From UHGV virus genome UHGV-0385671: DNA of 42,417 bases. The stretch is one strand, 5' to 3'. Shown here one piece after another: positions 32,374 to 42,417 of this stretch (position 1 is the stretch's first letter; each line of letters begins with the position of its first letter). The translations under genes were made by a program, and so were the position numbers. The notes below the pieces were generated by a model that was not told the origin of the DNA, searched no databases, and saw only the letters and a program-made list of their open reading frames with translations. This DNA comes from a virus.

Positions 32374-33126
32374 ATGGCAGTATCTGACCAGACCCGCAGC
32401 GGCGACCTTGCCGAAACATTCAAATCTGAACGGGAAACAACAAAGAACCAGATCCGTGTCGCCTTGCCTGGCATTATTCAGTCATTCGATCCTGATGCGG
32501 TGACGGCAGTTGTGCAGCCTGCTATCCGTTCGGTTGAAAAGGATAATGACGGCAACCGCATTACCAAAAATTACCCATTGCTGGTGGATGTGCCAGTGGT
32601 ATTCCCGCGCGGCGGAGGATGTACGCTAACGTTCCCAGTTAAAGCCGGTGATGAATGTTTGGTGATTTTTGCCGATCGTTGTATTGATTTCTGGTGGCAG
32701 AGTGGCGGGATACAGGAGTCGGTCGATGACAGAATGCATGATTTATCGGATGCGTTTTGTATTGTCGGTCCCCAGTCGCAGGCAAGGAAGATTAGCGGTA
32801 TTAATACCAGTGCCACACAGTTGCGTAGTGATGACGGCAGCACCTATTTTGAGCTTAATCCTGATATCAGGAAAATTAAAATTGTCGCTCCAGGTGGTCT
32901 TGATGTGGTTGCCCCTCTGGCTGATTTTTCTGAGAAAGTAACCATTCATGGCCTGTTAACCTGGATGGGGGGTATGGTGGGATCTGTGGTTTCTGGTGTG
33001 GCTTCAAAAATCACTGGTGCTGTTGAGTTTTTGGGGAGCGTGAAGGCTAATGGCAAGCCAATCGATGATACACACACTCATGGTGGTGTTCAGCGTGGTG
33101 GAAGCAGTACCGACGGGGTAAACTGA
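32374..33126 (+). CDS. Baseplate central spike protein (gpV / Mu gp45-like)
   Basis: TGGAG SD; 250 aa; C-terminal HTHGG; position before W-like and J-like genes. Confidence 0.6.
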   Translation: MAVSDQTRSGDLAETFKSERETTKNQIRVALPGIIQSFDPDAVTAVVQPAIRSVEKDNDGNRITKNYPLLVDVPVVFPRGGGCTLTFPVKAGDECLVIFADRCIDFWWQSGGIQESVDDRMHDLSDAFCIVGPQSQARKISGINTSATQLRSDDGSTYFELNPDIRKIKIVAPGGLDVVAPLADFSEKVTIHGLLTWMGGMVGSVVSGVASKITGAVEFLGSVKANGKPIDDTHTHGGVQRGGSSTDGVN

Positions 33127-33479
33127 TGCGATACAGACGTGAAGACGCCGATGGCGATTACACCTTTGGCAGCGGTGATGACACCTGGCTGATTAACTCG
33201 CCTGAGGCCGTAGCGCAGGCTGTGAAAACGCGATTCGAATTGTGGTATGGGCAATGGTTTCTTGATACCACAGAGGGAACACCGTGGATCCAGTCCGTGC
33301 TGGGCAGGCAAAAACCAGAAACTTACAACCTGGCGATCAGAAAACGCATTCTGGAAACGCAGGGCGTTAAATCAATCCTCTCTTTCAATACGACGGTGGA
33401 TACCACGACCCGACGTGTCATGTTTTCCGCTGAAATCGACACTCTCTATGGAATAACGACTGTTACATCGGAGGCGTAA
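33126..33479 (+). CDS. Baseplate protein (W / Mu gp46-like)
   Basis: ATGA overlap; 117 aa; position. Confidence 0.5.
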   Translation: MRYRREDADGDYTFGSGDDTWLINSPEAVAQAVKTRFELWYGQWFLDTTEGTPWIQSVLGRQKPETYNLAIRKRILETQGVKSILSFNTTVDTTTRRVMFSAEIDTLYGITTVTSEA

Positions 33480-34678
33480 TGGCTCTGAACCTTGATTCTC
33501 TCGGTTTATCTGCAAAGGTAACCGCGGAGGGGATCAGTGCGCCTGATTATCAGACGATACTCAGCACCCTGATTAGCTATTTTCAGCAGATTTATGGTAG
33601 TGATGCCTACCTCGAACCGGACAGTAAAGACGGTCAGATGGTGGCTCTGATGGCGCTGGCGATTCATGATGCCAATAATACTGCGATAACTGTCTACAAC
33701 TGTTTTTCACCGGCAACCGGCTATGGGGTTGCACTGACCAGTAACGTGAAAATAAATGGTATTTCACGTAAAGGCGCGACGAATTCTACGGTTGATTTGC
33801 TTCTTACAGGAACTGCCGGAACAACCATCATTAATGGCAGCGTGAAAGACAGTAATAATGTGATATGGCGTTTGCCTGCTTCAGTGGTGGTCGGCGTGGA
33901 TGGTACAGTGATGGTGACCGCAACATGTTCCGTCAGTGGTGCAGTGGCGGCGCTGGCTGGAACTATCACTGAAATTAATACGCCAACCCGTGGCTGGGTT
34001 TCGGTAACCAATCCTGCTGCAGCTACTGTGGGCACTCCGGCAGAAACTGACGCGGAGTTACGTATCCGCCAGTCGCAGAGTGTTGCGTTGCCATCAATAA
34101 CCCCATTTGAAGCACTGGATGGTGCTGTTTCTAATGTTACCGGTGTAACCCGCCACAAACTCTATGAAAACGATACTGGTTCGGAGGACGGTAACGGGTT
34201 ACCGCCACACTCTGTTGCTGTAATTGTGGATGGCGGTGATGTGACGGATATTGCTCAGGCTATCAGAGGGAATAAAGGCCAGGGGATAGCCACTCACGGT
34301 ACAACATCCGTTACGGTTCCGGATAAATACGGCAATCCCCATGTAATCAAGTTCTCGCGTTCCAGTAATGTACCTGTTTATGCCCGGATCAAATTAAAAG
34401 TTTTTACGGGTTATACCTCACAGATAGGGCAGCAGATCCAGCAGGCTATTTCCGACTATATCAATAGTCTGACGATTGGTGATTCGGTCCTTTTAAGTCG
34501 CATTTACTCACCGGCGAATCTTGGCGTGGTGAGTGGCGGGAATGCACGCTATTACGATATTCAGGAACTGACGATTGGGAAATCCCCGGGGGCTTTGTCG
34601 TCATCAAACATTGATATCAGATACAACGAATCTGCGTCCTGTACCCCGGGAAATATCGTTATAACGGTGGAGTCATGA
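33479..34678 (+). CDS. Baseplate J-like protein
   Basis: 399 aa; overlaps neighbours; position before the tail fibre genes. Confidence 0.55.
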   Translation: MALNLDSLGLSAKVTAEGISAPDYQTILSTLISYFQQIYGSDAYLEPDSKDGQMVALMALAIHDANNTAITVYNCFSPATGYGVALTSNVKINGISRKGATNSTVDLLLTGTAGTTIINGSVKDSNNVIWRLPASVVVGVDGTVMVTATCSVSGAVAALAGTITEINTPTRGWVSVTNPAAATVGTPAETDAELRIRQSQSVALPSITPFEALDGAVSNVTGVTRHKLYENDTGSEDGNGLPPHSVAVIVDGGDVTDIAQAIRGNKGQGIATHGTTSVTVPDKYGNPHVIKFSRSSNVPVYARIKLKVFTGYTSQIGQQIQQAISDYINSLTIGDSVLLSRIYSPANLGVVSGGNARYYDIQELTIGKSPGALSSSNIDIRYNESASCTPGNIVITVES

Positions 34679-35355
34679 GCAAATACACCGAACTAATCAC
34701 GAACTACCACGCCACCAAACCTAAATTTCTTGCACATGTTGATCTGATGACCCGGCCGCTTATTGATGTTGCGGCTGCGACCAGAGGGCTGATTACTGCA
34801 TTTGATATTGACTCTGCGGTTGGTGTGCAACTTGACATTCTGGGATTGTGGATCGGACGTAGCCGTGTTGTCAGCCAGCCTATCTCAGGTGTCTATTTCA
34901 GCTGGGATACCGACGGGCTTGGATATGATCAGGGTGTATGGCAGGGACCATACGATCCTGATTCAGGATACATGTATCTCAGCGATGAAACTTATCGTGT
35001 CATTCTTAAAGCGAAGATTGCGATTAATAACTGGGACGGACGGAATGATTCGCTTCCGGCAATTCTTGACGCGGCAACAGCAGGATCCGGGGTACGAATG
35101 CAGATAGTCGATAACCAGGACATGACGATATCGGTCTGGGTCTTTCCTGATACTGATATTTCAGATGTATCGCATGAGTTAATTGCGGCAATTAAACAGG
35201 GGTATCTCACAGTAAAAGCCGCCGGGGTATGGGCGGGTGGCATTGAAACACCTTCGGTGGAAACCCCATCGGAAGGTTCAAAATTTTTTGGTTTTGATAT
35301 GGATAACGAATTCATCAGTGGTTTTGATGTAGGGGCATGGGGAGTATTACTCTGA
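34675..35355 (+). CDS. Tail protein, YmfQ/DUF2313-like (Mu gp48-like)
   Basis: 226 aa; ATGA overlaps; position. Confidence 0.55.
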
Positions 35356-36452
35356 TGGCAAAAAATGACTTTAAAGCATTCGCAACGGGTAAAAATGCCA
35401 ATGTTATGTCGCAGGAGGAATGGGAAGCGTTGCCTGCGCTTTTATCCGGATTTACAGCAGGGAAAGCATCCAGTGCGCAAGTCAATAAGGTTATTCGACA
35501 GGCCAGCTTTATTGCATCTGCAATGGCACAATATACAGCAAATGAAAGTGGACTGGATGTACAGGACGATGGCGATCAGGCCGGCTTTATCGCAAAAATG
35601 TCGTCTGCATTAGATAAGAACTATCAGAGAATTAATGCCATACTTACCGCACTTGCTAATCTTTCAGCATCCGAAAACAAATTACCGTATTTTACCAATC
35701 AAGATACCGCTAATTTGGCTGACCTGACACAGGTTGGGCGAGATATTTTGGCAAAAAGCTCTGTTGCTGATGTCCTTAAATATCTTGGTTTGGAAAATAA
35801 TTCGACCTTTCCTGTAGGTGCCCCGATCCCGTGGCCATCAGATACAGTTCCATCTGGTTATGCTCTGATGCAGGGACAGACTTTTGACAAGTCTGCATAC
35901 CCGAAACTTGCAGCCGCTTATCCGTCAGGCGTGATCCCTGATATGCGTGGCTGGACGATTAAGGGCAAGCCCGCCAGTGGTCGTGCCGTATTGTCTCAGG
36001 AACAGGACGGCATTAAATCGCACACCCACAGCGCCAGTGCTTCAGATACAGATTTAGGGACAAAAAACACATCATCGTTTGATTATGGAACTAAATCTAC
36101 GAATAACACTGGTGCGCATACCCATAGCGTTAGCGGAACAGCAGCTTCAGCAGGTGCACATACGCATCCGATATCTCAGGGGGATAATGCTAACGTTAGC
36201 TCCGGTAGAGTAGCTTCGTCGAACTCTGCTCAAACTCACTTAGGTGCAACGAATTCTGCTGGCGCGCATACCCACTCAGTATCAGGTACCGCAGCAAGTG
36301 CTGGGGCGCATACACATACTGTCGCTATTGGTGCACATACGCACTTTGTTGCGATTGGTTCACATGGACACACCATCACCGTTAACGCTGCTGGTAACGC
36401 GGAAAACACCGTCAAAAACATCGCATTTAACTATATTGTGAGGCTTGCATAA
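35355..36452 (+). CDS. Tail fibre protein with C-terminal His-x-His repeat tip (StfE-like)
   Basis: GGGGAG SD 9 nt upstream of ATG 35355; six HxH motifs (GAHTHS x4, GAHTHF, GSHGHT); followed by tfa. Confidence 0.75.
36111..36317 (+). repeat. Two copies of a 19-codon segment encoding identical [19 protein letters not shown] with 13 of 19 codons synonymously different
   Basis: Copy 1 at 36111..36167, copy 2 at 36261..36317; includes AGC/TCA serine codon-family switches. Confidence 0.7.
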
Positions 36453-37024
36453 TGGCATTCAGAATGAGTGAACAATCACGGACCATAAAAATTTATAATC
36501 TGCTGTCCGGAACTAATGAATTTATTGGTGAAGGTGATGCATATATTCCACCCCATACAGGGCTGCCTGCAAACAGTACCGATATTGCACCGCCAGATAT
36601 TCCGGCTGGCTTCGTGGCTGTTTTCAACAGTGATGAGGCATTGTGGCATCTCGTTGAAGACCATCGGGGAAAAACCGTCTATGACGTGGCTTCCGGCGAC
36701 GCGTTATTTATTTCTGAACTTGGCCCATTACCGGAAAACGTCACCTGGTTGTCGCCGGATGGGGAGTTTCAGAAGTGGAACGGCACAGCCTGGGTGAAAG
36801 ATGCAGAAGGAGAAAAACTGTTCCGGATCCGGGAGGCGGAAGAGAAAAAGGCAAGATTAATCCAGGAAGCGACTGATAACATAACAATTCTGCAGGATGC
36901 TGTTAATTTTGAAATGGCAACTGATGAGGAAGTATCGATGCTATCTTCCTGGAAAAAATACCGGGTATTAGTGAGTCGGATTGATATAAATACAGCTCCG
37001 GATATTGTATGGCCAGAGCTGTGA
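36452..37024 (+). CDS. tfa: Tail fibre assembly protein (Tfa; e14 TfaE-like)
   Basis: N-terminus [61 protein letters not shown] matches my recollection of E. coli e14 TfaE. Confidence 0.85.
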
Positions 37025-37034
37025 TTAAACGGAA

Positions 37035-37580
37035 TTATGTGTGAGATGAGTTATAAATAATTTCAGAGTGAAATTTAGTAATGAATGTGGAGTCATCAGG
37101 AATGTCATGCAGTACCAATGCATGAGCTCCTATTTTTACATCATTCCCTATATGCACTTTGCCACCAAGGATGGTGGCGTTACAGCCAATGGTTACATTA
37201 TTTCCTATGACAATATCCATATCATTAAATTCACCGCGAAGTCCAATAGTTACTCCAGGCTTAATTGAACAATTTTCACCTATTGTAACTTTGTGACCGA
37301 TAACAACGCCATTGAGATAAGATATGTCAAACCCTTTACCAATATTTACAGTTAAGGGAACGGTTACATTGTATTTATCAAGAATGAAACGTTCTATTTT
37401 TCCCGCAATCTTCCGACAGTATCCGCCTTTATCAAAAAGGTATTTGGCTATGCGCCACCAAAATAAATAACGTAATCTTCTGTGTTTTATTGCGCGAACA
37501 ATTGCTTTTCGCCAGGAGAAAGGGCGTTTATAACCTATTACTTCATAGTGTATACACTTTTTAAGTTCACTAATATTCAT
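37035..37580 (-). CDS. Left-handed beta-helix (hexapeptide-repeat) acetyltransferase, WcaB/serine acetyltransferase-like; candidate surface-polysaccharide modifier
   Basis: Tandem hexapeptide repeats (VVIGHKVTIGENCSIKPGVTIG..., IVIGNNVTIGCNATILGGKVHIGNDVKIGAHALV); AT-rich; convergent with tfa. Confidence 0.7.
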   Translation of the reverse strand: MNISELKKCIHYEVIGYKRPFSWRKAIVRAIKHRRLRYLFWWRIAKYLFDKGGYCRKIAGKIERFILDKYNVTVPLTVNIGKGFDISYLNGVVIGHKVTIGENCSIKPGVTIGLRGEFNDMDIVIGNNVTIGCNATILGGKVHIGNDVKIGAHALVLHDIPDDSTFITKFHSEIIYNSSHT

Positions 37581-37661
37581 ATGTCTATTATTCAGTAAAG
37601 ATAATTCTGTAACTTATTATTATATTAAGTTTAATGAGATTTTTCTACAGTTTACTGTCTT

Positions 37662-37793
37662 ACTCTCACGCCGGAGCAATGGGCGCAGGCTGGACGACAA
37701 ATTGCATCAGGAGTTTCTCGCCAGAAAGTGGCGATCATCTATGATGTTGGCGTATCGACTTTGTATAAGAAGTTTCCGGTCGGAGATGAATGA
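37662..37793 (+). pseudogene. 3' remnant of a Pin/Gin/Hin-family DNA invertase gene (C-terminal HTH only; catalytic domain missing)
   Basis: Frame encodes LTPEQWAQAGRQIASGVSRQKVAIIYDVGVSTLYKKFPVGDE, aligning with my recollection of the Pin C-terminus (LTKAEWEQAGRLLAQGIPRKQVALIYDVALSTLYKKHP); in-frame stop 27 nt upstream, no start. Confidence 0.65.
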
Positions 37794-37874
37794 AACCGTG
37801 GCACGTCGTATGCAAGAACGTGCCACGACTGGCTGATAAGCTTGTAAAAATCTTGAACAGGGAGTGGAGCATTT

Positions 37875-38522
37875 CTATGAAGCTAATTTGTTTAATTTCA
37901 TTTGTAGCGACTTTACTTCTTGGTCGATAATGTTGAATCCCTTATTGACGGCATCTCTTAGCTCTGCATCAATATTTTTTATCCCTTGAGCATAATCTAC
38001 CATTACATCTATTTTTTCATCATGTAATCTCTTATACATGGTTTTATCTTTGTTATTGTCAGCCATACCAATAAGGATTTTTTCATAATCCTCAATGAGT
38101 TTGTTGTTTCCTTTAAATGATTGTATTAATGACCGTGAATATGTGTAGATATTAATTATTGAGTCTCTGGCAGAATCATTTAGTTTTGCAATGACATTCG
38201 CATTTTGCTCATAGAATGTGAAATTATCATCCCCTACAGGGAAAGTGAGAATTAACATCTGTCCGGGTTTGATATTATCAATGTGTGTTTTCATCCTTTT
38301 ATTATATAAATTGATTAGGGTGAAAACTTCTCCCTTAACACCTTTTAATACTGAAAGTTGCAATTCAAGGGATTCTCTTTCTGTCTCTACTTTAGACAGC
38401 TTAGCTTGTTGGGTAACTCCTTTTAGGGTAAACCATCCGCCAATAAGAGTACCAACTAGAGCTGTGAGGGAGGAGGATAACCATCCAGGAATGCTATTTA
38501 AAAAATTACTAAATTCACTCAT
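37875..38522 (-). CDS. Membrane-anchored hypothetical protein (215 aa; N-terminal TM helix, coiled coil, C-terminal domain)
   Basis: Hydrophobic WLSSSLTALVGTLIGGWFTL near N-terminus; AT-rich; between invertase remnant and integrase. Confidence 0.55.
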   Translation of the reverse strand: MSEFSNFLNSIPGWLSSSLTALVGTLIGGWFTLKGVTQQAKLSKVETERESLELQLSVLKGVKGEVFTLINLYNKRMKTHIDNIKPGQMLILTFPVGDDNFTFYEQNANVIAKLNDSARDSIINIYTYSRSLIQSFKGNNKLIEDYEKILIGMADNNKDKTMYKRLHDEKIDVMVDYAQGIKNIDAELRDAVNKGFNIIDQEVKSLQMKLNKLAS

Positions 38523-38582
38523 TATAAGTACTCGCTAATATTGAACGATATATATATATCAAATTATTATAAAACTCGTCAG

Positions 38583-39014
38583 CTACTGGAGAAGGCTACC
38601 TGAACTTCGATCTATTCCTGCATCCATATAGTTGATGGTCTTCTGGAGCTCTTCGATTAGGGCAACAGCTTTTGCTCGAGAAATGCATATTAGTTGATCC
38701 GGAAATTCTTGTAAGGACCAGTTTGGTATACTGGCCATGTTATCAGTGAAGGATGCAGACAAGTAAACTTCATTGGTAACCAGAGAATAGCTTACCTCAA
38801 AATTGGTGAGCTCCGGCAAACTGCTAATGTTTGACTCTTTTCTGCGCATAACGTTATCCAGGACTGTGATTATGTACAGGTGATGGTCTTCAATTTTGAA
38901 GAGGGAGTCAAGGGGAGTCTCAAATGAACCGTTATAGAAAGGGGGGATCTTTGTGTTGCTGAACTTATGCAAAATTTTTTTGCACCATAAATCCAACAAC
39001 ACATTCAATAACAC
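38583..39014 (-). CDS. Hypothetical protein (143 aa; start uncertain, alternative ATG at 38849)
   Basis: AT-rich ORF upstream of and co-oriented with 37875..38522; no convincing SD for the longest start. Confidence 0.45.
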   Translation of the reverse strand: MLLNVLLDLWCKKILHKFSNTKIPPFYNGSFETPLDSLFKIEDHHLYIITVLDNVMRRKESNISSLPELTNFEVSYSLVTNEVYLSASFTDNMASIPNWSLQEFPDQLICISRAKAVALIEELQKTINYMDAGIDRSSGSLLQ

Positions 39015-39317
39015 ATTGCTGTATTACTATGAAAATAAATGTGTTTTTATTTGATCTCACACATATCACAATTAATACAGCGTTTAGTAATTAGTAAAGA
39101 CATTTCAATGAATTACCGTTAAATCATTTTAAAATCAGTAAGTTGTATCGAGTTTGTATGCTTTACTGTCATTAACTTACTGTATGTTGATCCAGTGTAT
39201 TTAACCTTGATAAACTCAGTCCAGCAACACAAAACCGCAACACATTACATTTTGTCCCGTAGAAAAGACTTGTATGTGTGAGCTTGTTTTCTGCGCCTAC
39301 GCAGATAAGGATTGAGA

Positions 39318-40715
39318 ATGCCGCGCACTGTAACACATAATCCGGATAGCCCCAATAATGACGATGTTTTAGCCGCATCTGAAAAATGGGACGCCTGTAA
39401 ACCCCCCTATACCAGCGCACACATGAAAATCTGTGTTGCTGCCGCCAAAATCATCCTCGCTGCTTCCGGTGTGGCTCGCCGTTCCAAATACGAAAAAGAG
39501 AACTATCTCCGTATCGATTTCAGCAAAGCCGGTAAGGTTACATTTTACGCCGAGTTTCCAAAAAAGATGGGCCTCAAAGGTAAAAAGCTCGGCGAGTGGC
39601 CGGAGCTCGCTATCCAGCTGGCGCGCGAAAAAGCGCTAGGTATGGCTGACGGTGGCCTGCGGGCAGAGTCCGTACATGCAGCGCTGGAAATGTACCGGGA
39701 TGACCTCAAAGCCAAAGTCGCACGGCAGAAGCTGAGCCCGGACAGTTTCACAACCTACGGGGTGCGTATAGACCGGATTAAAGCAACGTTCGGCGAGCGC
39801 GAGGTGTTCAGCGACGTAACATACAATCGGCTGGTGGAAGTGCTGGACGAGTGGATCGCCACTCGCTCGAACAATAACGCCCTGGAGTTGTTTGCCGAGC
39901 TCCGTCGGTTCTGGAAGTTCTGCGCACCTACTCTTTGCAACGGCCGCAATGTTGCCGCCAGTCTGCCAGATGATTATGTTTCCTCCCGCGTACAGAAACC
40001 TACCCCCACACGGCTTTTTACCGATATTGAATCAATCGCCCGACTCTGGCTCAATGTTGCTGCCTGCGCCTCTGTACACCAGAAGAATGCTGTTCGCTTC
40101 ATGATCATCACTGGCGTTCGTCCGATTAATGTCCATAACCTGCGCTGGGACTACGTTCACGAGGAGGCTGGTGAAATTGTTTATCCGGAAGGGGTTATCG
40201 GCATGCGAGGGGCTATGAAAACACAAAAGGCTTTCCGCCTGCCGATAACGCCTGAGATCCGGCGGATTATCGACGAGCAGAAAGCCTGGCGTGATTCAGT
40301 TCCTGAGTGCAATAGGGATTATGTATTTTTGCAGCCACGTGATCCAATGCAGCCATTTTCAAAACGATCACTGGATAAGCTAGTGAAAACATACAGCCCG
40401 GACGGGGCTGTAAAAGGAATAAAACATGATGGGACTGTTAAAGGGAAAGACGGTGCATTTAATACTATGTGCCGTAAATTCCTTAAGAGCAATGTTATTG
40501 CCTTGATGAAGGAAAGAGGCTATTCCCGCTCAGACCGAAGGGAAATCAGCCTCCTTTGCCTTCATCACTCCAGCAAGTCAGATGACCCGATGGCAGAACA
40601 TTACGACTTTTCTGATGAGATTTTACAGGAAGAGATTGCGTTGAAGCGCGAAGCTTTCGAAGCTCACGAGCGGAGCATACTTGCGCAGGTGGCATTGCTA
40701 CGACGGCGAGGTTAA
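39318..40715 (+). CDS. int: Tyrosine integrase (P4-like family)
   Basis: AAGGA SD upstream of ATG 39318; catalytic-region motifs TGVRPINVHNLRWDYV, MKTQKAFRLPI, LCLHHSSKS, EHYDFS. Confidence 0.8.
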   Translation: MPRTVTHNPDSPNNDDVLAASEKWDACKPPYTSAHMKICVAAAKIILAASGVARRSKYEKENYLRIDFSKAGKVTFYAEFPKKMGLKGKKLGEWPELAIQLAREKALGMADGGLRAESVHAALEMYRDDLKAKVARQKLSPDSFTTYGVRIDRIKATFGEREVFSDVTYNRLVEVLDEWIATRSNNNALELFAELRRFWKFCAPTLCNGRNVAASLPDDYVSSRVQKPTPTRLFTDIESIARLWLNVAACASVHQKNAVRFMIITGVRPINVHNLRWDYVHEEAGEIVYPEGVIGMRGAMKTQKAFRLPITPEIRRIIDEQKAWRDSVPECNRDYVFLQPRDPMQPFSKRSLDKLVKTYSPDGAVKGIKHDGTVKGKDGAFNTMCRKFLKSNVIALMKERGYSRSDRREISLLCLHHSSKSDDPMAEHYDFSDEILQEEIALKREAFEAHERSILAQVALLRRRG

Positions 40716-40912
40716 TACCGGCTGCGACACTTTTGAATAAAAGCGTCTACATTGCGGCGCTCATAACGAACTACTTTTGCACTGAAACGAATTGGTGCCA
40801 GGATAGCCCGATGACGATGCTTAATATTCCACTCACATAGCGTTTTCTGTGTAATACCTAACTTTTGGCATACTTCATCCGGGGTGAGTAAATCGTCGGG
40901 TTTCTCGCTCAT
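40712..40912 (-). CDS. AlpA-family HTH protein (likely excisionase/regulator)
   Basis: 66 aa; LTPDEVCQKLGITQKTLCEW and VVRYERRNVDAFI pattern; 4-nt overlaps with the helicase gene and convergent with int. Confidence 0.7.
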   Translation of the reverse strand: MSEKPDDLLTPDEVCQKLGITQKTLCEWNIKHRHRAILAPIRFSAKVVRYERRNVDAFIQKCRSRY

Positions 40913-42306
40913 GCTATACCTCTCTTTTTCATGGCATCGAGCAGGATGTCCTGCACTGTTCGTTTTGAGTTGCGCCGCTCCATCACCATTTCGTCCATAG
41001 TGTCGGCAGCAATAATGTGGTGAATAAATACCGGACGATTGTGTCCGGCCTGTATCTGCCTGGTGGGGCCGATACGTTCAATAATTTGCTGATATTGCTC
41101 CAGGTCCCACCAGTGTGAGAAAAATACCAGTATATTCCCGCCGTCCTGCATGTTCAGGCCGTGGCCCGCGCTGGCTGGGTGTGCAAAGAGAACAGGAATC
41201 TTTCCGGAATTCCAGTCGCGCAGTGTCTGTGGATCCTGGTCGAGGTGACGACCGCGAGGGAATGCTTTAAGCAAGCGTTCAAGATCGTGTTTCCAGTGAT
41301 AAGCAACCAGCACAGGTGCGCCAGCTGCTTCGGTCAGTATGCTGTCCAGCGCCTGTAGTTTGGTGTCATGCAGTTCTGACCAACTTCCGGTGTCGTCTGT
41401 GTATACTGCGCCACTGGCGATTTGAAGACACTTCAGTGTCTTTGCCGCGGCGTTCGGTGCTTCGATACCTTCGCCATTCAGCTCGAGGAACATTTCCTTT
41501 TCCATTTCACGATACTGCTGACGGGCCTTCGGCGGCATATCCACGCGGATTACGTTATGGATGGGGTCTTTGATATCGAACCAGTCGGCCGCATCCAGCG
41601 AGAGGGTCACATCGGCTAATGCTCGCTGTATTTCACCCTGTGAGTGAGCAAAAGGCTCCAGTTTAGTCCAGCTCTGTCCCGGAAACTGTATCGAGTTGAA
41701 CCAGCGTGAGGTAAACGCGCCGTAAGTGCGCCCGAGACGTTGCCCTTGGTCCACAAACCACGATTGTCCCCACAAATCTACCAGGCCGTTCGGTGCTGGC
41801 GTACCGGTGAGATTTATCCAGCGCCGGACATACTTATGCGCCACTTTGCCCAGCGCCGCCGCGCGCTTACCACCACCTCGCAGCCGGAAGGATTTTAGCC
41901 GGGTGCTTTCATCTGGAATGACAATACCGAACGGCCATCGTTCTCCCAATTCTTCAACCAGCCAGACAAGGTTATCGTAGTTGATGGTGAACACGCTTGC
42001 GTTGCTGTTCGCCAGCGCCGTAGAGCGCGCTTTGGCATTACCAACAATCGGCTGCACCTCGATATTGCGCAAATGCCCCCACTTCACTGCTTCATCCGGC
42101 CAGGTGTTTGCTGCAACACGTAGCGGCGCGAGGACCAGTGCGGGGCGTGTTTCTGCCCCTGCCATAAAAAGATCTTCCAGCGCAGTGAGCGTTGCCACGG
42201 TTTTACCCATTCCCATGCCTGCCCAGATGTTGCAGCGCATAATGTCGATTTGATGATTGATGATGAGATCTTGGTAGGGGTGAGGTGAAAATATAGCATA
42301 GTCCAT
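40909..42306 (-). CDS. SNF2-family helicase (superfamily 2 ATPase)
   Basis: Walker A GMGMGKT, DEAD-like box IPDEST, C-terminal helicase motifs; GGAGATA SD upstream of ATG 42306. Confidence 0.8.
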   Translation of the reverse strand: MDYAIFSPHPYQDLIINHQIDIMRCNIWAGMGMGKTVATLTALEDLFMAGAETRPALVLAPLRVAANTWPDEAVKWGHLRNIEVQPIVGNAKARSTALANSNASVFTINYDNLVWLVEELGERWPFGIVIPDESTRLKSFRLRGGGKRAAALGKVAHKYVRRWINLTGTPAPNGLVDLWGQSWFVDQGQRLGRTYGAFTSRWFNSIQFPGQSWTKLEPFAHSQGEIQRALADVTLSLDAADWFDIKDPIHNVIRVDMPPKARQQYREMEKEMFLELNGEGIEAPNAAAKTLKCLQIASGAVYTDDTGSWSELHDTKLQALDSILTEAAGAPVLVAYHWKHDLERLLKAFPRGRHLDQDPQTLRDWNSGKIPVLFAHPASAGHGLNMQDGGNILVFFSHWWDLEQYQQIIERIGPTRQIQAGHNRPVFIHHIIAADTMDEMVMERRNSKRTVQDILLDAMKKRGIA

Positions 42307-42373
42307 GGTATTGTATCTCCATGAATGAACTTATGTAGTAATAGCTTAATTATTTATTTCGAAAGGAACAGTT

Positions 42374-42417
42374 ATGACCTCAGCTTATACAGATGTCCAG
42401 CAAGAAGAAAATATTAC
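42374..42417 (+). CDS. N-terminal fragment of junction-spanning hypothetical protein (accessory cassette gene 1); continues at 1..844
   Basis: ATG at 42374 preceded by AAAGGAA Shine-Dalgarno; MTSAYTDVQQEENIT then runs off the window end in the same frame as ORF 1..844. Confidence 0.5.
   Translation, partial: MTSAYTDVQQEENI
42409..42417. repeat. 9-nt terminal identity (aaatattac) with positions 1..9; signature of a circular or overlapping-end sequence
   Basis: Last 9 nt aaatattac equal first 9 nt; reading frame of ORF 42374.. continues into 1..844 with or without collapsing the repeat. Confidence 0.7.

What the first reader, a model, noticed from the sequence alone, without database searches (positions are those of the whole stretch)
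37035..37793. Decayed tail-fibre inversion switch: Pin-family invertase remnant with an acetyltransferase where the alternate fibre cassette would be
Downstream of the StfE/TfaE-like pair, e14-, Mu- and P1-type phages carry an invertible segment and a Pin/Gin/Cin invertase. Here only the last roughly 44 codons of an invertase remain (37662..37793, no start, in-frame stop upstream), and the intervening space holds a convergent hexapeptide-repeat acetyltransferase. Host-range switching appears lost, with gain of a candidate polysaccharide-modifying gene.
Basis: partly seen in the sequence, partly recalled or inferred. Interest (0 to 1): 0.65.

Follow-up and report, generated by a model that had tools for sequence, protein, structure and literature searches.

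The report
Dead tail-fibre switch carrying acyltransferase gene
In this E. coli prophage the DNA-flipping switch that normally lets the phage alternate between two tail-fibre tips has been destroyed, and an uncharacterised acyltransferase-family gene with an unusual active site sits where the second tip used to be; the arrangement recurs in E. coli prophages and is only moderately surprising.

Summary
Window 37665..37793 (+) encodes only Pin codons 143-184, with no start codon and stops upstream. Window 37035..37580 (-) is an intact 181-aa hexapeptide (LbH) acyltransferase-family gene, convergent with the tail-fibre assembly gene.

Relatives of the same phage family with an intact switch (fibre-tfa-tfa'-Sv'-pin) match the window only up to 35588 and again from 37665. 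So the alternate cassette, the right crossover site and pin codons 1-142 are gone. One decayed crossover site remains at 35773-35798.

The replacement is a 1.84-kb block (fibre tip, tfa, acyltransferase and a promoter-like site). It also occurs in lambdoid, P1-like and another baseplate-J (possibly P2-like) backbone.

Other E. coli prophages carry different cargo in front of differently truncated pin stubs: an Oac-type membrane acyltransferase, a second LbH enzyme, or a tailspike. Decay is therefore recurrent.

The enzyme is not a serine acetyltransferase, whatever RefSeq calls it. Its clade has replaced the family's Asp/His catalytic pair with Thr/Lys/Val and Tyr, and has an Asp at another active-site position. 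It is nevertheless under strong purifying selection (dN/dS about 0.1).

Modification of a surface glycan is plausible but unproven. This is a new member of a known kind; interest is moderate.

The parts
35337..36452 (+). Tail-fibre gene (371 aa). The constant part runs to about 35790. The exchangeable tip (Collar domain plus fibre repeats) starts at about 35811.
   Evidence: ORF. Pfam Collar E=2.2e-12 and Phage_fiber E=1.3e-7. Homology to intact relatives L010/L011 ends at 35588 and to L009 at 35793. Block homology to L004, L002 and L093 starts at 35808-35811.
35773..35798 (.). Degraded crossover (pix-like) site at the boundary between the constant and variable parts of the fibre. It is the only such site left.
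   Evidence: The site TCCTTAAATATCTTGGTTTGGAAAAT matches e14 pixL CTCTCGAAAACCTTGGTTTGGGAGAA at 17 of 26 positions. The tip-side half matches 9/12 and the other half 6/12. No partner site was found: the core search gave no hit in 35-38 kb, and the scan found no other site within 9 mismatches in the fibre-to-stub region.
36452..37024 (+). Tail-fibre assembly (chaperone) gene, 190 aa. It is the only copy in the window.
   Evidence: Caudo_TAP E=2.4e-37. tblastn with a panel of Tfa proteins finds one locus only.
37035..37580 (-). LbH (hexapeptide-repeat) acyltransferase-family gene, 181 aa, phrog_2154. It resembles CysE/WcaB/EpsC but falls below every family cutoff. Positions T73, Y88 and D122 replace the usual Asp, His and non-acidic residues.
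   Evidence: AF2 model pLDDT 91.2. Best Foldseek hits are serine acetyltransferases at TM about 0.72. dN/dS is 0.09-0.16. GC content is 32-38% against about 48% for the tail genes.
37619..37647 (-). Promoter-like site for the acyltransferase gene (TAGAAA, 17 nt, TATAAT), lying inside the mobile block.
   Evidence: Best consensus match in the region, 10 of 12. This is a consensus match only; the number of such sites in the region does not exceed the shuffles. Block homology to P1-like L004 runs to 37654, just past the -35 hexamer.
37655..37664 (.). Junction between the end of the acyltransferase block and the start of pin homology. A few bases here have no identifiable origin.
   Evidence: Homology to L004 ends at 37654 and pin homology starts at 37665. 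The same junction is present in lambdoid L002.
37665..37793 (+). Pin-type invertase pseudogene: codons 143-184 (HTH domain) plus the stop. The catalytic domain and the start codon are absent.
   Evidence: RefSeq marks the same stub as an N-terminally incomplete pseudogene in relatives, three of which also have internal stops.
37797..37827 (+). Conserved GC-rich hairpin just after the pin stop. It lies near where the module's homology ends in most of the compared loci.
   Evidence: Fold energy -24.4 kcal/mol, z=-5.25 against shuffles. The sequence is conserved in all stub-bearing and intact E. coli loci aligned (A2). Homology to most of the compared prophages ends at 37835-37843 (L007 at 37818), while L001 and L006 continue to 39093.
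37875..39014 (-). Two AT-rich genes of unknown function (215 aa at 37875..38522; 143 aa at 38583..39014) that fill the rest of the prophage's right end. The prophage ends near 39093.
   Evidence: ORFs. No Pfam, NCBIfam or PADLOC match; the 143-aa protein matches phrog_17793, of unknown function. Homology to prophages at the yfhH locus ends at 39093.

Best explanation
This is the host-range end of an E. coli myovirus-type prophage (baseplate J, DUF2612, fibre) whose Pin-type invertible tail-fibre switch has been overwritten.

In intact relatives, the constant part of the fibre gene is followed by an invertible segment. That segment holds two opposed tip-plus-chaperone cassettes between two crossover sites, and the pin gene follows. 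Here, a 1.84-kb block runs from just past the left crossover site up to pin codon 143. It holds one fibre tip, one chaperone and a convergent acyltransferase-family gene with a promoter-like site upstream.

The consequences for the switch are direct. The fibre is locked in one form. The pin stub is a pseudogene with no catalytic domain and no start codon. The single remaining crossover site is degraded.

The block, including the stub in one case, moves between unrelated phage backbones. The likely route is homologous recombination, using the conserved fibre collar region on the left and the pin 3' end with its hairpin on the right.

The acyltransferase-family gene is a selected, AT-rich, separately transcribed cargo gene (a moron). 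I infer that it is expressed from the prophage and transfers an acyl group from acyl-CoA to a cytoplasmic intermediate of an envelope glycan (O-antigen, colanic acid or similar). That would change the cell surface and the cell's susceptibility to phages, as NeuO and Oac-type enzymes do.

What is shown: the anatomy, the loss of the switch, the mobility of the block, and purifying selection on the gene. What is inferred: expression in the lysogen, catalytic activity, the glycan target, and the phage-exclusion benefit. My confidence in the shown structural part is about 0.9 and in the inferred enzyme function about 0.4.
For: Switch loss:
- Intact relatives L010, L011 and L032 have fibre-tfa-tfa'-Sv'-pin. 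L010 and L011 have 20-bp inverted crossover sites.
- The window matches L010/L011 at 96% up to 35588 and at 92% from 37665 to 37837 only.
- The stub equals Pin residues 143-184.
- The window has one Tfa and one fibre tip and one 17/26 crossover relic.

Block mobility:
- Window 35808/35811 to 37648/37654 is shared at 83-84% with P1-like L004 and with L093.
- It is shared at 91-95% with lambdoid L002, where homology continues through the stub to 37835.
- P1-like plasmids have the gene in place of U'-Sv'-cin. PMC9603915 describes a 37%-identical relative, sacF, in the same slot of JL22.

The gene is functional:
- dN/dS is 0.09-0.16 at dS up to 0.70.
- A promoter-like site scores 10/12.

Glycan link:
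- In the same slot in front of a pin stub, L009 carries a PF01757 Acyl_transf_3 enzyme and L006 a second LbH enzyme.
- In L032 a relative sits beside a GT17 glycosyltransferase between an intact pin and yfhH.
- The closest families by HMM are EpsC, CysE, WcaB, NeuD and WbbJ.
- A relative about 52% identical (P0015) is also convergent with tfa, and one about 43% identical (P0036) lies at a prophage end beyond tail-fibre genes.
- A precedent exists: prophage-encoded LbH NeuO acetylates the K1 capsule and protects against K1 phage (PMC3046976, PMC9659370).
Against: - No experiment links this family (phrog_2154, 'unknown function') to any substrate.
- The window's clade lacks the Asp/His pair that PMC8786284 describes as catalytic in SAT. 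PMC3046976 says a catalytic His is shared by all crystallised LbH family members. The protein may therefore be inactive or do different chemistry.
- Many more distant relatives (35-43% identity) are orphan chromosomal genes with no phage or glycan context.
- The fibre tip and chaperone resemble lambda Stf/Tfa. From my own knowledge these recognise OmpC rather than a glycan, so a 'mask your own receptor' logic is not established.
- The promoter call is only a consensus match.
- L006 shows that the acyltransferase can be swapped independently of a very similar fibre. This weakens the idea of a fixed functional pair.
Confidence: 0.6

Rival explanations
1. The protein keeps the LbH fold but is no longer a conventional O-acetyltransferase. 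It could be a pseudoenzyme (a binding or regulatory protein). Alternatively it could be a rewired enzyme that uses Asp122 (with Tyr88) as its base, or one that acts on an amine acceptor needing no strong base. The phenotype it confers would then not be simple O-acetylation.
For: Across 102 relatives, 90 have D/E plus H at the positions of the SAT dyad and 3 have S plus H. Exactly the 9 sequences of the window's clade have T/K/V plus Y. The same 9 carry Asp (8 of 9) or His at position 122, where the sister clade has M/L/Q/K/N. All 48 species-representative genomes that gave a scorable homologue keep the His, and the 47 scorable at the acid position keep E/D. Purifying selection shows the variant is maintained and not decaying. 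PMC3046976 states that a catalytic His is shared by all crystallised family members.
Against: The CoA-binding part of the LbH domain and the repeat register are well conserved (A1/A3). A coordinated three-position change looks more like active-site rewiring than loss of activity. No structure of the trimer with ligand was available to test whether Y88 and D122 face the active site.
Confidence: 0.25
2. It is a true serine O-acetyltransferase, as RefSeq names it: an auxiliary metabolic gene that boosts cysteine synthesis.
For: PGAP labels it 'serine acetyltransferase'. The best HMM and structure matches are SATs.
Against: Scores are far below the curated cutoffs: TIGR01172 77 against 210.65, PRK11132 50 against 397, EpsC 86 against 150. 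All six SAT active-site residues mapped through the 6wye alignment are replaced (D147 to T73, D161 to S87, H162 to Y88, E170 to H96, R196 to M121, H197 to D122). No SATase_N domain was found, and the protein is 181 aa against 273. The C-terminus does not end in the Ile that, from my own knowledge, binds CysK.
Confidence: 0.03
3. It acetylates a small molecule rather than a glycan: an antibiotic or xenobiotic as Vat/CatB enzymes do, or a metabolite involved in phage defence.
For: There are weak HMM matches to Vat, CatB, maltose and galactoside acetyltransferases (E 1e-5 to 1e-8). Prophage ends often carry defence genes.
Against: Those matches score 22-32 bits against cutoffs of 300-475 and cover only generic hexapeptide repeats. 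No PADLOC model matches. Neighbouring or analogous cargo is glycan-related.
Confidence: 0.07
4. The pin stub is retained because it still does something. It could act as a small HTH peptide. Alternatively, with its hairpin, it could serve as a terminator and homology arm that lets cargo blocks recombine into any Pin-bearing phage.
For: Stubs with three different 5' truncation points (pin nt 386, 404, 427) all keep the last 130-170 nt plus the hairpin. The identical junction occurs in two unrelated backbones (window and L002). The window and L006 share the same endpoint but carry different acyltransferase genes.
Against: As a protein it is ruled out: there is no start codon, and three relatives have internal stops. 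The homology-arm idea is only consistent with the pattern. Retention could simply reflect where illegitimate deletions happened to end, or the short time since the events. L092 lost the 3' part instead.
Confidence: 0.25

Closest known systems
e14 P-region / PinE (also Mu G-segment/Gin and P1 C-segment/Cin) invertible tail-fibre switches
   Same: The gene order up to the switch is the same. The window has a fibre with a constant part and an exchangeable tip, a Tfa chaperone, and a crossover-site position at the constant/variable boundary. The 3' HTH part of the invertase is 83% identical to K-12 PinE and 93% identical to the Pin of intact relatives.
   Different: There is no catalytic domain and no start codon. 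There is no second tip-plus-chaperone cassette and no right crossover site. The left site is degraded to 17/26. The switch is dead.
NeuO, the LbH polysialic-acid O-acetyltransferase of E. coli K1 prophage CUS-3 (PMC3046976, PMC9659370)
   Same: Both are prophage-encoded, soluble LbH-family enzymes carried as cargo. NeuO changes a surface glycan and protects against phage. This is the model for how the window's gene may work.
   Different: The sequence relationship is very distant (PDB 2wlc, E=0.0055). NeuO has the catalytic His and a phase-variable heptad region. The window's protein has Tyr at the His position, and I saw no tandem repeats when reading the sequence (no repeat finder was run on the gene). 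The target is unknown.
Acyl_transf_3 O-antigen acetylases of temperate phages (Oac of Sf6 and relatives; from my own knowledge)
   Same: The cargo type and genomic logic are the same. In L009, a prophage of the same family, a PF01757 enzyme occupies the same slot between tfa and a pin stub, also convergent.
   Different: The fold is unrelated (integral membrane versus soluble LbH), so there is no family membership.
CysE / WcaB / EpsC subgroup of LbH acetyltransferases
   Same: These are the best HMM and structural matches, with a short helical N-terminal part followed by the LbH domain.
   Different: The protein scores below every curated cutoff. The serine-binding residues and the Asp/His dyad are replaced.
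'sacF' serine acetyltransferase of P1-like phage-plasmid JL22 (PMC9603915)
   Same: It is an LbH gene found with a tfa in the variable tail-fibre region (lydC, cin, Sv', U', U, S) of a P1-like element. The authors called its role unknown.
   Different: JL22's protein is only 37% identical. Closer copies (88-92% identity) occur in other P1-like plasmids. Those elements show no annotated invertase or pin-homologous DNA next to the gene.

Membership tests
Serine-recombinase DNA invertase (Pin/Gin/Cin/Hin) | N-terminal resolvase catalytic domain with the active-site serine | tested here: not met
   Only Pin residues 143-184 are encoded. There are stops upstream and no start codon.
Serine-recombinase DNA invertase (Pin/Gin/Cin/Hin) | C-terminal HTH_7 DNA-binding domain | tested here: met
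   PF02796 E=5.7e-10, 39.6 bits against a cutoff of 23.8.
Serine-recombinase DNA invertase (Pin/Gin/Cin/Hin) | Two inverted 26-bp crossover sites flanking the invertible segment | tested here: not met
   There is one relic at 35773-35798, matching 17/26, and no partner. Intact relatives have a 95%-complementary 20-bp pair.
Serine-recombinase DNA invertase (Pin/Gin/Cin/Hin) | Two opposed alternative fibre-tip/chaperone cassettes | tested here: not met
   There is a single Tfa and a single tip in the window.
LbH (hexapeptide-repeat) acyltransferase superfamily | Hexapeptide repeats forming a left-handed beta-helix | tested here: met
   PF00132 scores 49.7 bits against a cutoff of 27. The AF2 model has pLDDT 91.2 and pTM 0.82. 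Foldseek hits to SAT structures have probability 1.00 and TM about 0.72.
LbH (hexapeptide-repeat) acyltransferase superfamily | Conserved catalytic histidine on the loop protruding from the helix | tested here: not met
   Tyr88 aligns with NgSAT His162. His is present in 93 of 102 relatives, and Tyr only in the window's 9-member clade.
Serine O-acetyltransferase CysE (TIGR01172, PRK11132) | Score above the curated cutoff, the SATase_N domain, and the serine-binding residues (Asp, Glu, Arg-His) | tested here: not met
   Scores are 77.3 against 210.65 and 50.3 against 397. There is no PF06426 match. All six active-site residues are replaced.
Colanic-acid acetyltransferase WcaB (TIGR04016) / EpsC (NF041874) | Score above the curated equivalog cutoff | tested here: not met
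   WcaB scores 57.9 against 194.65 and EpsC 85.8 against 150.
Prophage lysogenic-conversion glycan-modifying genes (functional class) | Prophage-borne, separately transcribed, changes a surface glycan and phage or serum sensitivity | not testable with these tools
   The prophage location, opposite strand, low GC and promoter-like site are shown. The surface change needs wet-lab work.
Known anti-phage defence systems (PADLOC) | Match to a defence-system protein model | tested here: not met
   There is no hit for the acyltransferase or for the two downstream ORFs.

The most novel reading that the evidence does not exclude
Two linked ideas are not excluded by the evidence.

(1) The phage-restricted Tyr clade is an LbH enzyme with a relocated catalytic centre (Tyr88/Asp122 instead of Asp73/His88) and hence a new acceptor or chemistry. 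It travels with a particular fibre tip and chaperone as a 'bind the receptor, then mask the receptor' unit.

(2) Pin 3' stubs plus their hairpin act as portable homology arms. Cargo blocks (LbH or Oac-type acyltransferases, tailspikes) use them to overwrite inversion switches in any Pin-bearing phage. That would make trading host-range bet-hedging for lysogenic conversion a general evolutionary route.
Probability: 0.2. Interest if true: 0.6.

Novelty: new member of a known kind. Interest (0 to 1): 0.35.

Why it matters
The region shows, with mapped breakpoints, how a phage host-range switch is lost and replaced by host-benefiting cargo. The same slot repeatedly collects enzymes of glycan-modifying families.

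It corrects a widespread database label: 'serine acetyltransferase' is applied to a phage-borne family present in several hundred E. coli chromosomes and plasmids.

It also flags a clade in which the supposedly universal catalytic histidine of LbH acyltransferases has been replaced under purifying selection. If the enzyme masks a phage receptor or alters O-antigen or capsule acylation, it would affect serotyping, phage-therapy host range and prophage-mediated exclusion. As it stands, this is a tidy example of known prophage mosaicism rather than a new mechanism.

Tried and rejected
- PADLOC gave no defence-system match for the acyltransferase or the two downstream ORFs.
- Rfam at gathering thresholds found nothing in the whole window.
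- The first AF2 run, on a 28-sequence alignment, was too poor to use (pLDDT 67). It was repeated with 102 sequences.
- A search for the crossover-site core AAACCNNGGTTT with up to 1 mismatch found nothing near the fibre. The relic only emerged by aligning to e14 and L010 sites.
- I looked for a pin relic or crossover site in the 218 nt upstream of the P0015 homologue, where six metagenomic contigs all end. Nothing was recognisable.
- A tblastn census with a Tfa panel and PinE across 53 loci from other genera found an immediately adjacent Tfa in 6 and a full-length Pin in one (L032). The tfa association therefore does not extend to distant relatives, though the panel may be too narrow.
- The bases between the block and the stub (37655-37664) could not be assigned to any source. 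Their weak resemblance to a gix half-site was judged to be chance.
- Literature searches for this gene class next to invertase remnants returned only annotation-level mentions.
- I considered and rejected the serine-acetyltransferase label, a Vat/CatB-type resistance function, and a coding role for the stub (see the rival explanations).
Full report
**1. What is at the coordinates**

The ORF at 37035..37580 on the minus strand is intact at 181 aa. It matches Pfam Hexapep at E=2.2e-13. Ten bases separate its stop from the stop of the tail-fibre assembly gene at 36452..37024 (Caudo_TAP, E=2.4e-37). That gene follows a 371-aa fibre gene at 35337..36452 (Collar and Phage_fiber).

On the plus strand, 37662..37793 reads LTPEQW...FPVGDE*. 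In-frame stops lie just upstream, and there is no start codon. The peptide matches the resolvase HTH domain (HTH_7, E=5.7e-10). It aligns to residues 143-184 of the 184-aa PinE.

No other invertase-like sequence, Tfa or fibre tip exists in the window. The acyltransferase gene and the two ORFs after the stub are AT-rich, at 32-38% GC against about 48% for the tail genes.

**2. Where the sequence comes from**

The region is 97-99.8% identical to prophages in complete E. coli chromosomes inserted next to yfhH. RefSeq annotates the same string there: tail fibre, tail-fibre assembly protein, 'serine acetyltransferase', an N-terminally incomplete HTH pseudogene, and a hypothetical protein. The 776-bp acyltransferase-plus-stub unit occurs in 59 of 5426 complete genomes.

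**3. Is it a decayed switch?**

Yes. Three prophages of the same family carry the full arrangement (spike, baseplate J, DUF2612, fibre, then fibre-tfa-tfa'(-)-Sv'(-)-pinE(+)). They are L010 and L011 in E. coli at the pphA locus, and L032 in Buttiauxella at the yfhH locus. L010 and L011 also have 20-bp inverted crossover sites like those of e14.

Pairwise blastn gives the breakpoints:
- The window matches L010/L011 at 96% from 33047 to 35588.
- It matches again at 92% from 37665 to 37837.
- Nothing between matches apart from one 33-bp fragment.

So 35589-37664 stands in place of both tips, both chaperones, the right crossover site and pin codons 1-142.

At the boundary between the constant and variable parts of the window's fibre gene there is one relic of a crossover site, at 35773-35798. 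It matches e14 pixL at 17 of 26 positions, with the tip-side half better kept. Homology to L009 stops within it, at 35793. With one degraded site and no partner, inversion cannot occur even if another Pin acts in trans.

**4. What replaced it**

The stretch from 35808/35811 to 37648/37654 comprises the fibre tip from the Collar domain onward, tfa, the acyltransferase gene and a promoter-like site. The site is TAGAAA, 17 nt, TATAAT, scoring 10 of 12.

This stretch is a single block of homology shared with three other backbones:
- P1-like phage-plasmids (L004, L012) at 83-84%
- L093, a prophage region with a baseplate-J gene and a different (possibly P2-like) tail module, at 83%
- a lambdoid prophage (L002) at 91-95%

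In L002 the homology continues through the identical junction and the stub to 37835. The block, stub included, is therefore mobile. The truncation need not have happened in this prophage.

In P1-like elements the gene stands where U'-Sv'-cin would be. PMC9603915 noted a 37%-identical relative there and called its presence unexplained.

**5. Decay is recurrent**

Mapping stubs onto the 555-nt pin gene gives several distinct endpoints:

| pin truncation point | Loci | Cargo in front of the stub |
|---|---|---|
| nt 427 | window, L001, L002 | this acyltransferase |
| nt 427 | L006 | a different LbH gene that keeps the 'HH' motif |
| nt 404 | L009 | a convergent PF01757 Acyl_transf_3 gene |
| nt 386 | L007, L008 | a pectate-lyase-like tailspike |

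At the yfhH locus, L092 keeps the 5' part of pin and has lost the 3' part. Three stubs carry internal stops.

All 5'-truncated stubs keep the last 130-170 nt and a conserved hairpin. That hairpin lies at 37797-37827, folds at -24.4 kcal/mol and has z=-5.25. Homology to most of the compared prophages ends just beyond it, at 37835-37843. This is compatible with the stub serving as a recombination anchor, but that is inference.

**6. What the acyltransferase-family protein is**

*Family.* It belongs to phrog_2154, of unknown function (E=2e-77). Its nearest curated families are EpsC, CysE, WcaB, NeuD and WbbJ, and it scores far below every cutoff. A confident AF2 model (pLDDT 91.2) is closest to serine acetyltransferases, at TM about 0.72.

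*Not a serine acetyltransferase.* Using the HMMER alignment to N. gonorrhoeae SAT and that paper's residue list (PMC8786284), every active-site residue is replaced:

| NgSAT residue | Window's protein |
|---|---|
| D147 | T73 |
| D161 | S87 |
| H162 | Y88 |
| E170 | H96 |
| R196 | M121 |
| H197 | D122 |

The N-terminal SAT domain is also absent.

*A rewired active site.* In 102 relatives, 90 have D/E plus H at the dyad positions and 3 have S plus H. Only the window's 9-member clade has T/K/V plus Y. The same 9 carry Asp or His at position 122, where the sister clade has M/L/Q/K/N. All 48 scorable homologues from species-representative genomes keep the His, and 47 of them also show E/D at the acid position.

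The clade is nevertheless under strong purifying selection, with dN/dS of 0.09-0.16 at dS up to 0.70. A coordinated three-position change under selection suggests a rewired active site rather than a dead gene. PMC3046976 says all crystallised LbH family members share the catalytic His, so this departure is unusual.

**7. Likely function**

Direct evidence is lacking. Four pieces of circumstantial evidence point to a surface glycan:
- Unrelated Oac-type acyltransferases occupy the same slot (L009).
- In L032 a relative lies next to a GT17 glycosyltransferase, between an intact pin and yfhH.
- The nearest families act on exopolysaccharide or O-antigen precursors.
- The prophage LbH enzyme NeuO acetylates a capsule and protects against phage.

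A relative about 52% identical (P0015) is also convergent with a tfa gene, and one about 43% identical (P0036) lies at a prophage end beyond tail-fibre genes. Proteus L045 shows the same layout by sequence reading only.

Against a simple story, many relatives at 35-43% identity are orphan chromosomal genes. Examples are the Rahnella copies in a conserved non-phage context and the Citrobacter copies next to very large (1,600-1,760 aa) proteins that look like autotransporters from their sequence alone. L006 also shows the enzyme can be swapped behind a near-identical fibre.

I therefore give about 0.4 to 'acylates an envelope glycan precursor and alters phage susceptibility'. I give about 0.25 to 'different chemistry or a non-catalytic role'.

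**8. Comparison with the known, and verdict**

Invertible fibre switches (e14/Pin, Mu/Gin, P1/Cin) are classical. Pseudogenised invertases and cargo genes near tail-fibre genes are also familiar, as are prophage acyltransferases that modify surface glycans. This locus fails the membership tests for a functional invertase system and for CysE, WcaB and EpsC. It is a member of the LbH superfamily by fold and repeats, but lacks the family's hallmark His.

The finding is best filed as a new member of a known kind: a decayed switch plus a conversion-type moron. Two modestly novel observations are worth follow-up. One is the recurrent overwriting of the alternate-fibre slot by glycan-directed cargo in front of pin stubs. 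The other is the His-to-Tyr clade.

Interest is 0.35.

Noticed in passing
window 39057-42417: A second integrative element starts right after the prophage end. It has a tyrosine integrase (39312..40715), an HTH_17 excisionase-like gene (40712..40912, -) and an SNF2/DEAD helicase (40909..42306, -). The same DNA lies next to yfhL in 156 complete E. coli genomes, so two mobile elements sit in tandem at the yfhH/yfhL site.
   Followed up: partly
window 37875-39014 (-): Two AT-rich ORFs lie between the pin stub and the prophage end. The 215-aa protein has a hydrophobic N-terminal stretch that could be a membrane segment. The 143-aa protein matches phrog_17793. Neither has a Pfam, NCBIfam or PADLOC match. 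They are possible further cargo or exclusion genes.
   Followed up: partly
L032 5971-8887 (Buttiauxella MAG, yfhH locus): This is the same phage family with an intact fibre switch and a full-length pin. A GT17 glycosyltransferase and an LbH relative that keeps the Glu/His pair follow as end cargo. The pairing with a glycosyltransferase is the best contextual hint of a glycan target.
   Followed up: partly
L007 2334-3866 and L008 2328-3860: In e14-like prophages the fibre gene stfP is truncated. A 510-aa pectate-lyase-like tailspike (annotated GH55) sits in front of a pin stub truncated at nt 386. The receptor-binding protein has been replaced together with loss of the switch.
   Followed up: partly
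L092 4550-4885 (vB_EcoM-611R5 record, yfhH locus): This copy of pin keeps the 5' part (about 90 good codons) and has lost the 3' HTH part. That is the opposite kind of decay in the same prophage family. The 'phage' record also includes the host genes yfhH, yfhB and tadA, so it is a predicted prophage region rather than a packaged genome.
   Followed up: partly
L004 5600-6547 and L012 (P1-like plasmids): About 950 nt of GC-rich DNA lie between the acyltransferase gene and the lydA-type holin. RefSeq annotates nothing there in L004, and only two short ORFs (51 and 71 aa) are called there in L012. The origin of this stretch is unknown.
   Followed up: no
window 37105-37125 (+): The only terminator-like hairpin in the region (TCATGCAGTACCAATGCATGA followed by a T-rich tail) lies inside the 3' end of the acyltransferase gene on the opposite strand. 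It may end the late tail-fibre transcript. Late transcription would then run antisense into the cargo gene.
   Followed up: no
L001 3196-4424: The closest relative in RefSeq (strain S1-IND-01-A, 99.8% identity) has an IS2 inserted in the spike gene, which is intact in the window (32374..33126). PGAP also calls its fibre gene N-terminally incomplete, although the window's 371-aa ORF is intact.
   Followed up: no
L031, L035, L036, L038, L039, L042, L048, L052 (Rahnella): Distant relatives of the acyltransferase (35-38% identity, Glu/His kept) sit in a conserved chromosomal neighbourhood. The neighbours look, from their sequences alone, like a peptide transporter and a large signalling protein. 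No phage genes were recognised nearby, so the family is not exclusively phage-borne.
   Followed up: partly
L016-L021 (metagenomic contigs with P0015): Six contigs from different runs all end about 200-220 nt upstream of the acyltransferase homologue. This suggests a repeat or a structural variant at that point. Nothing recognisable was found in the sequence.
   Followed up: partly
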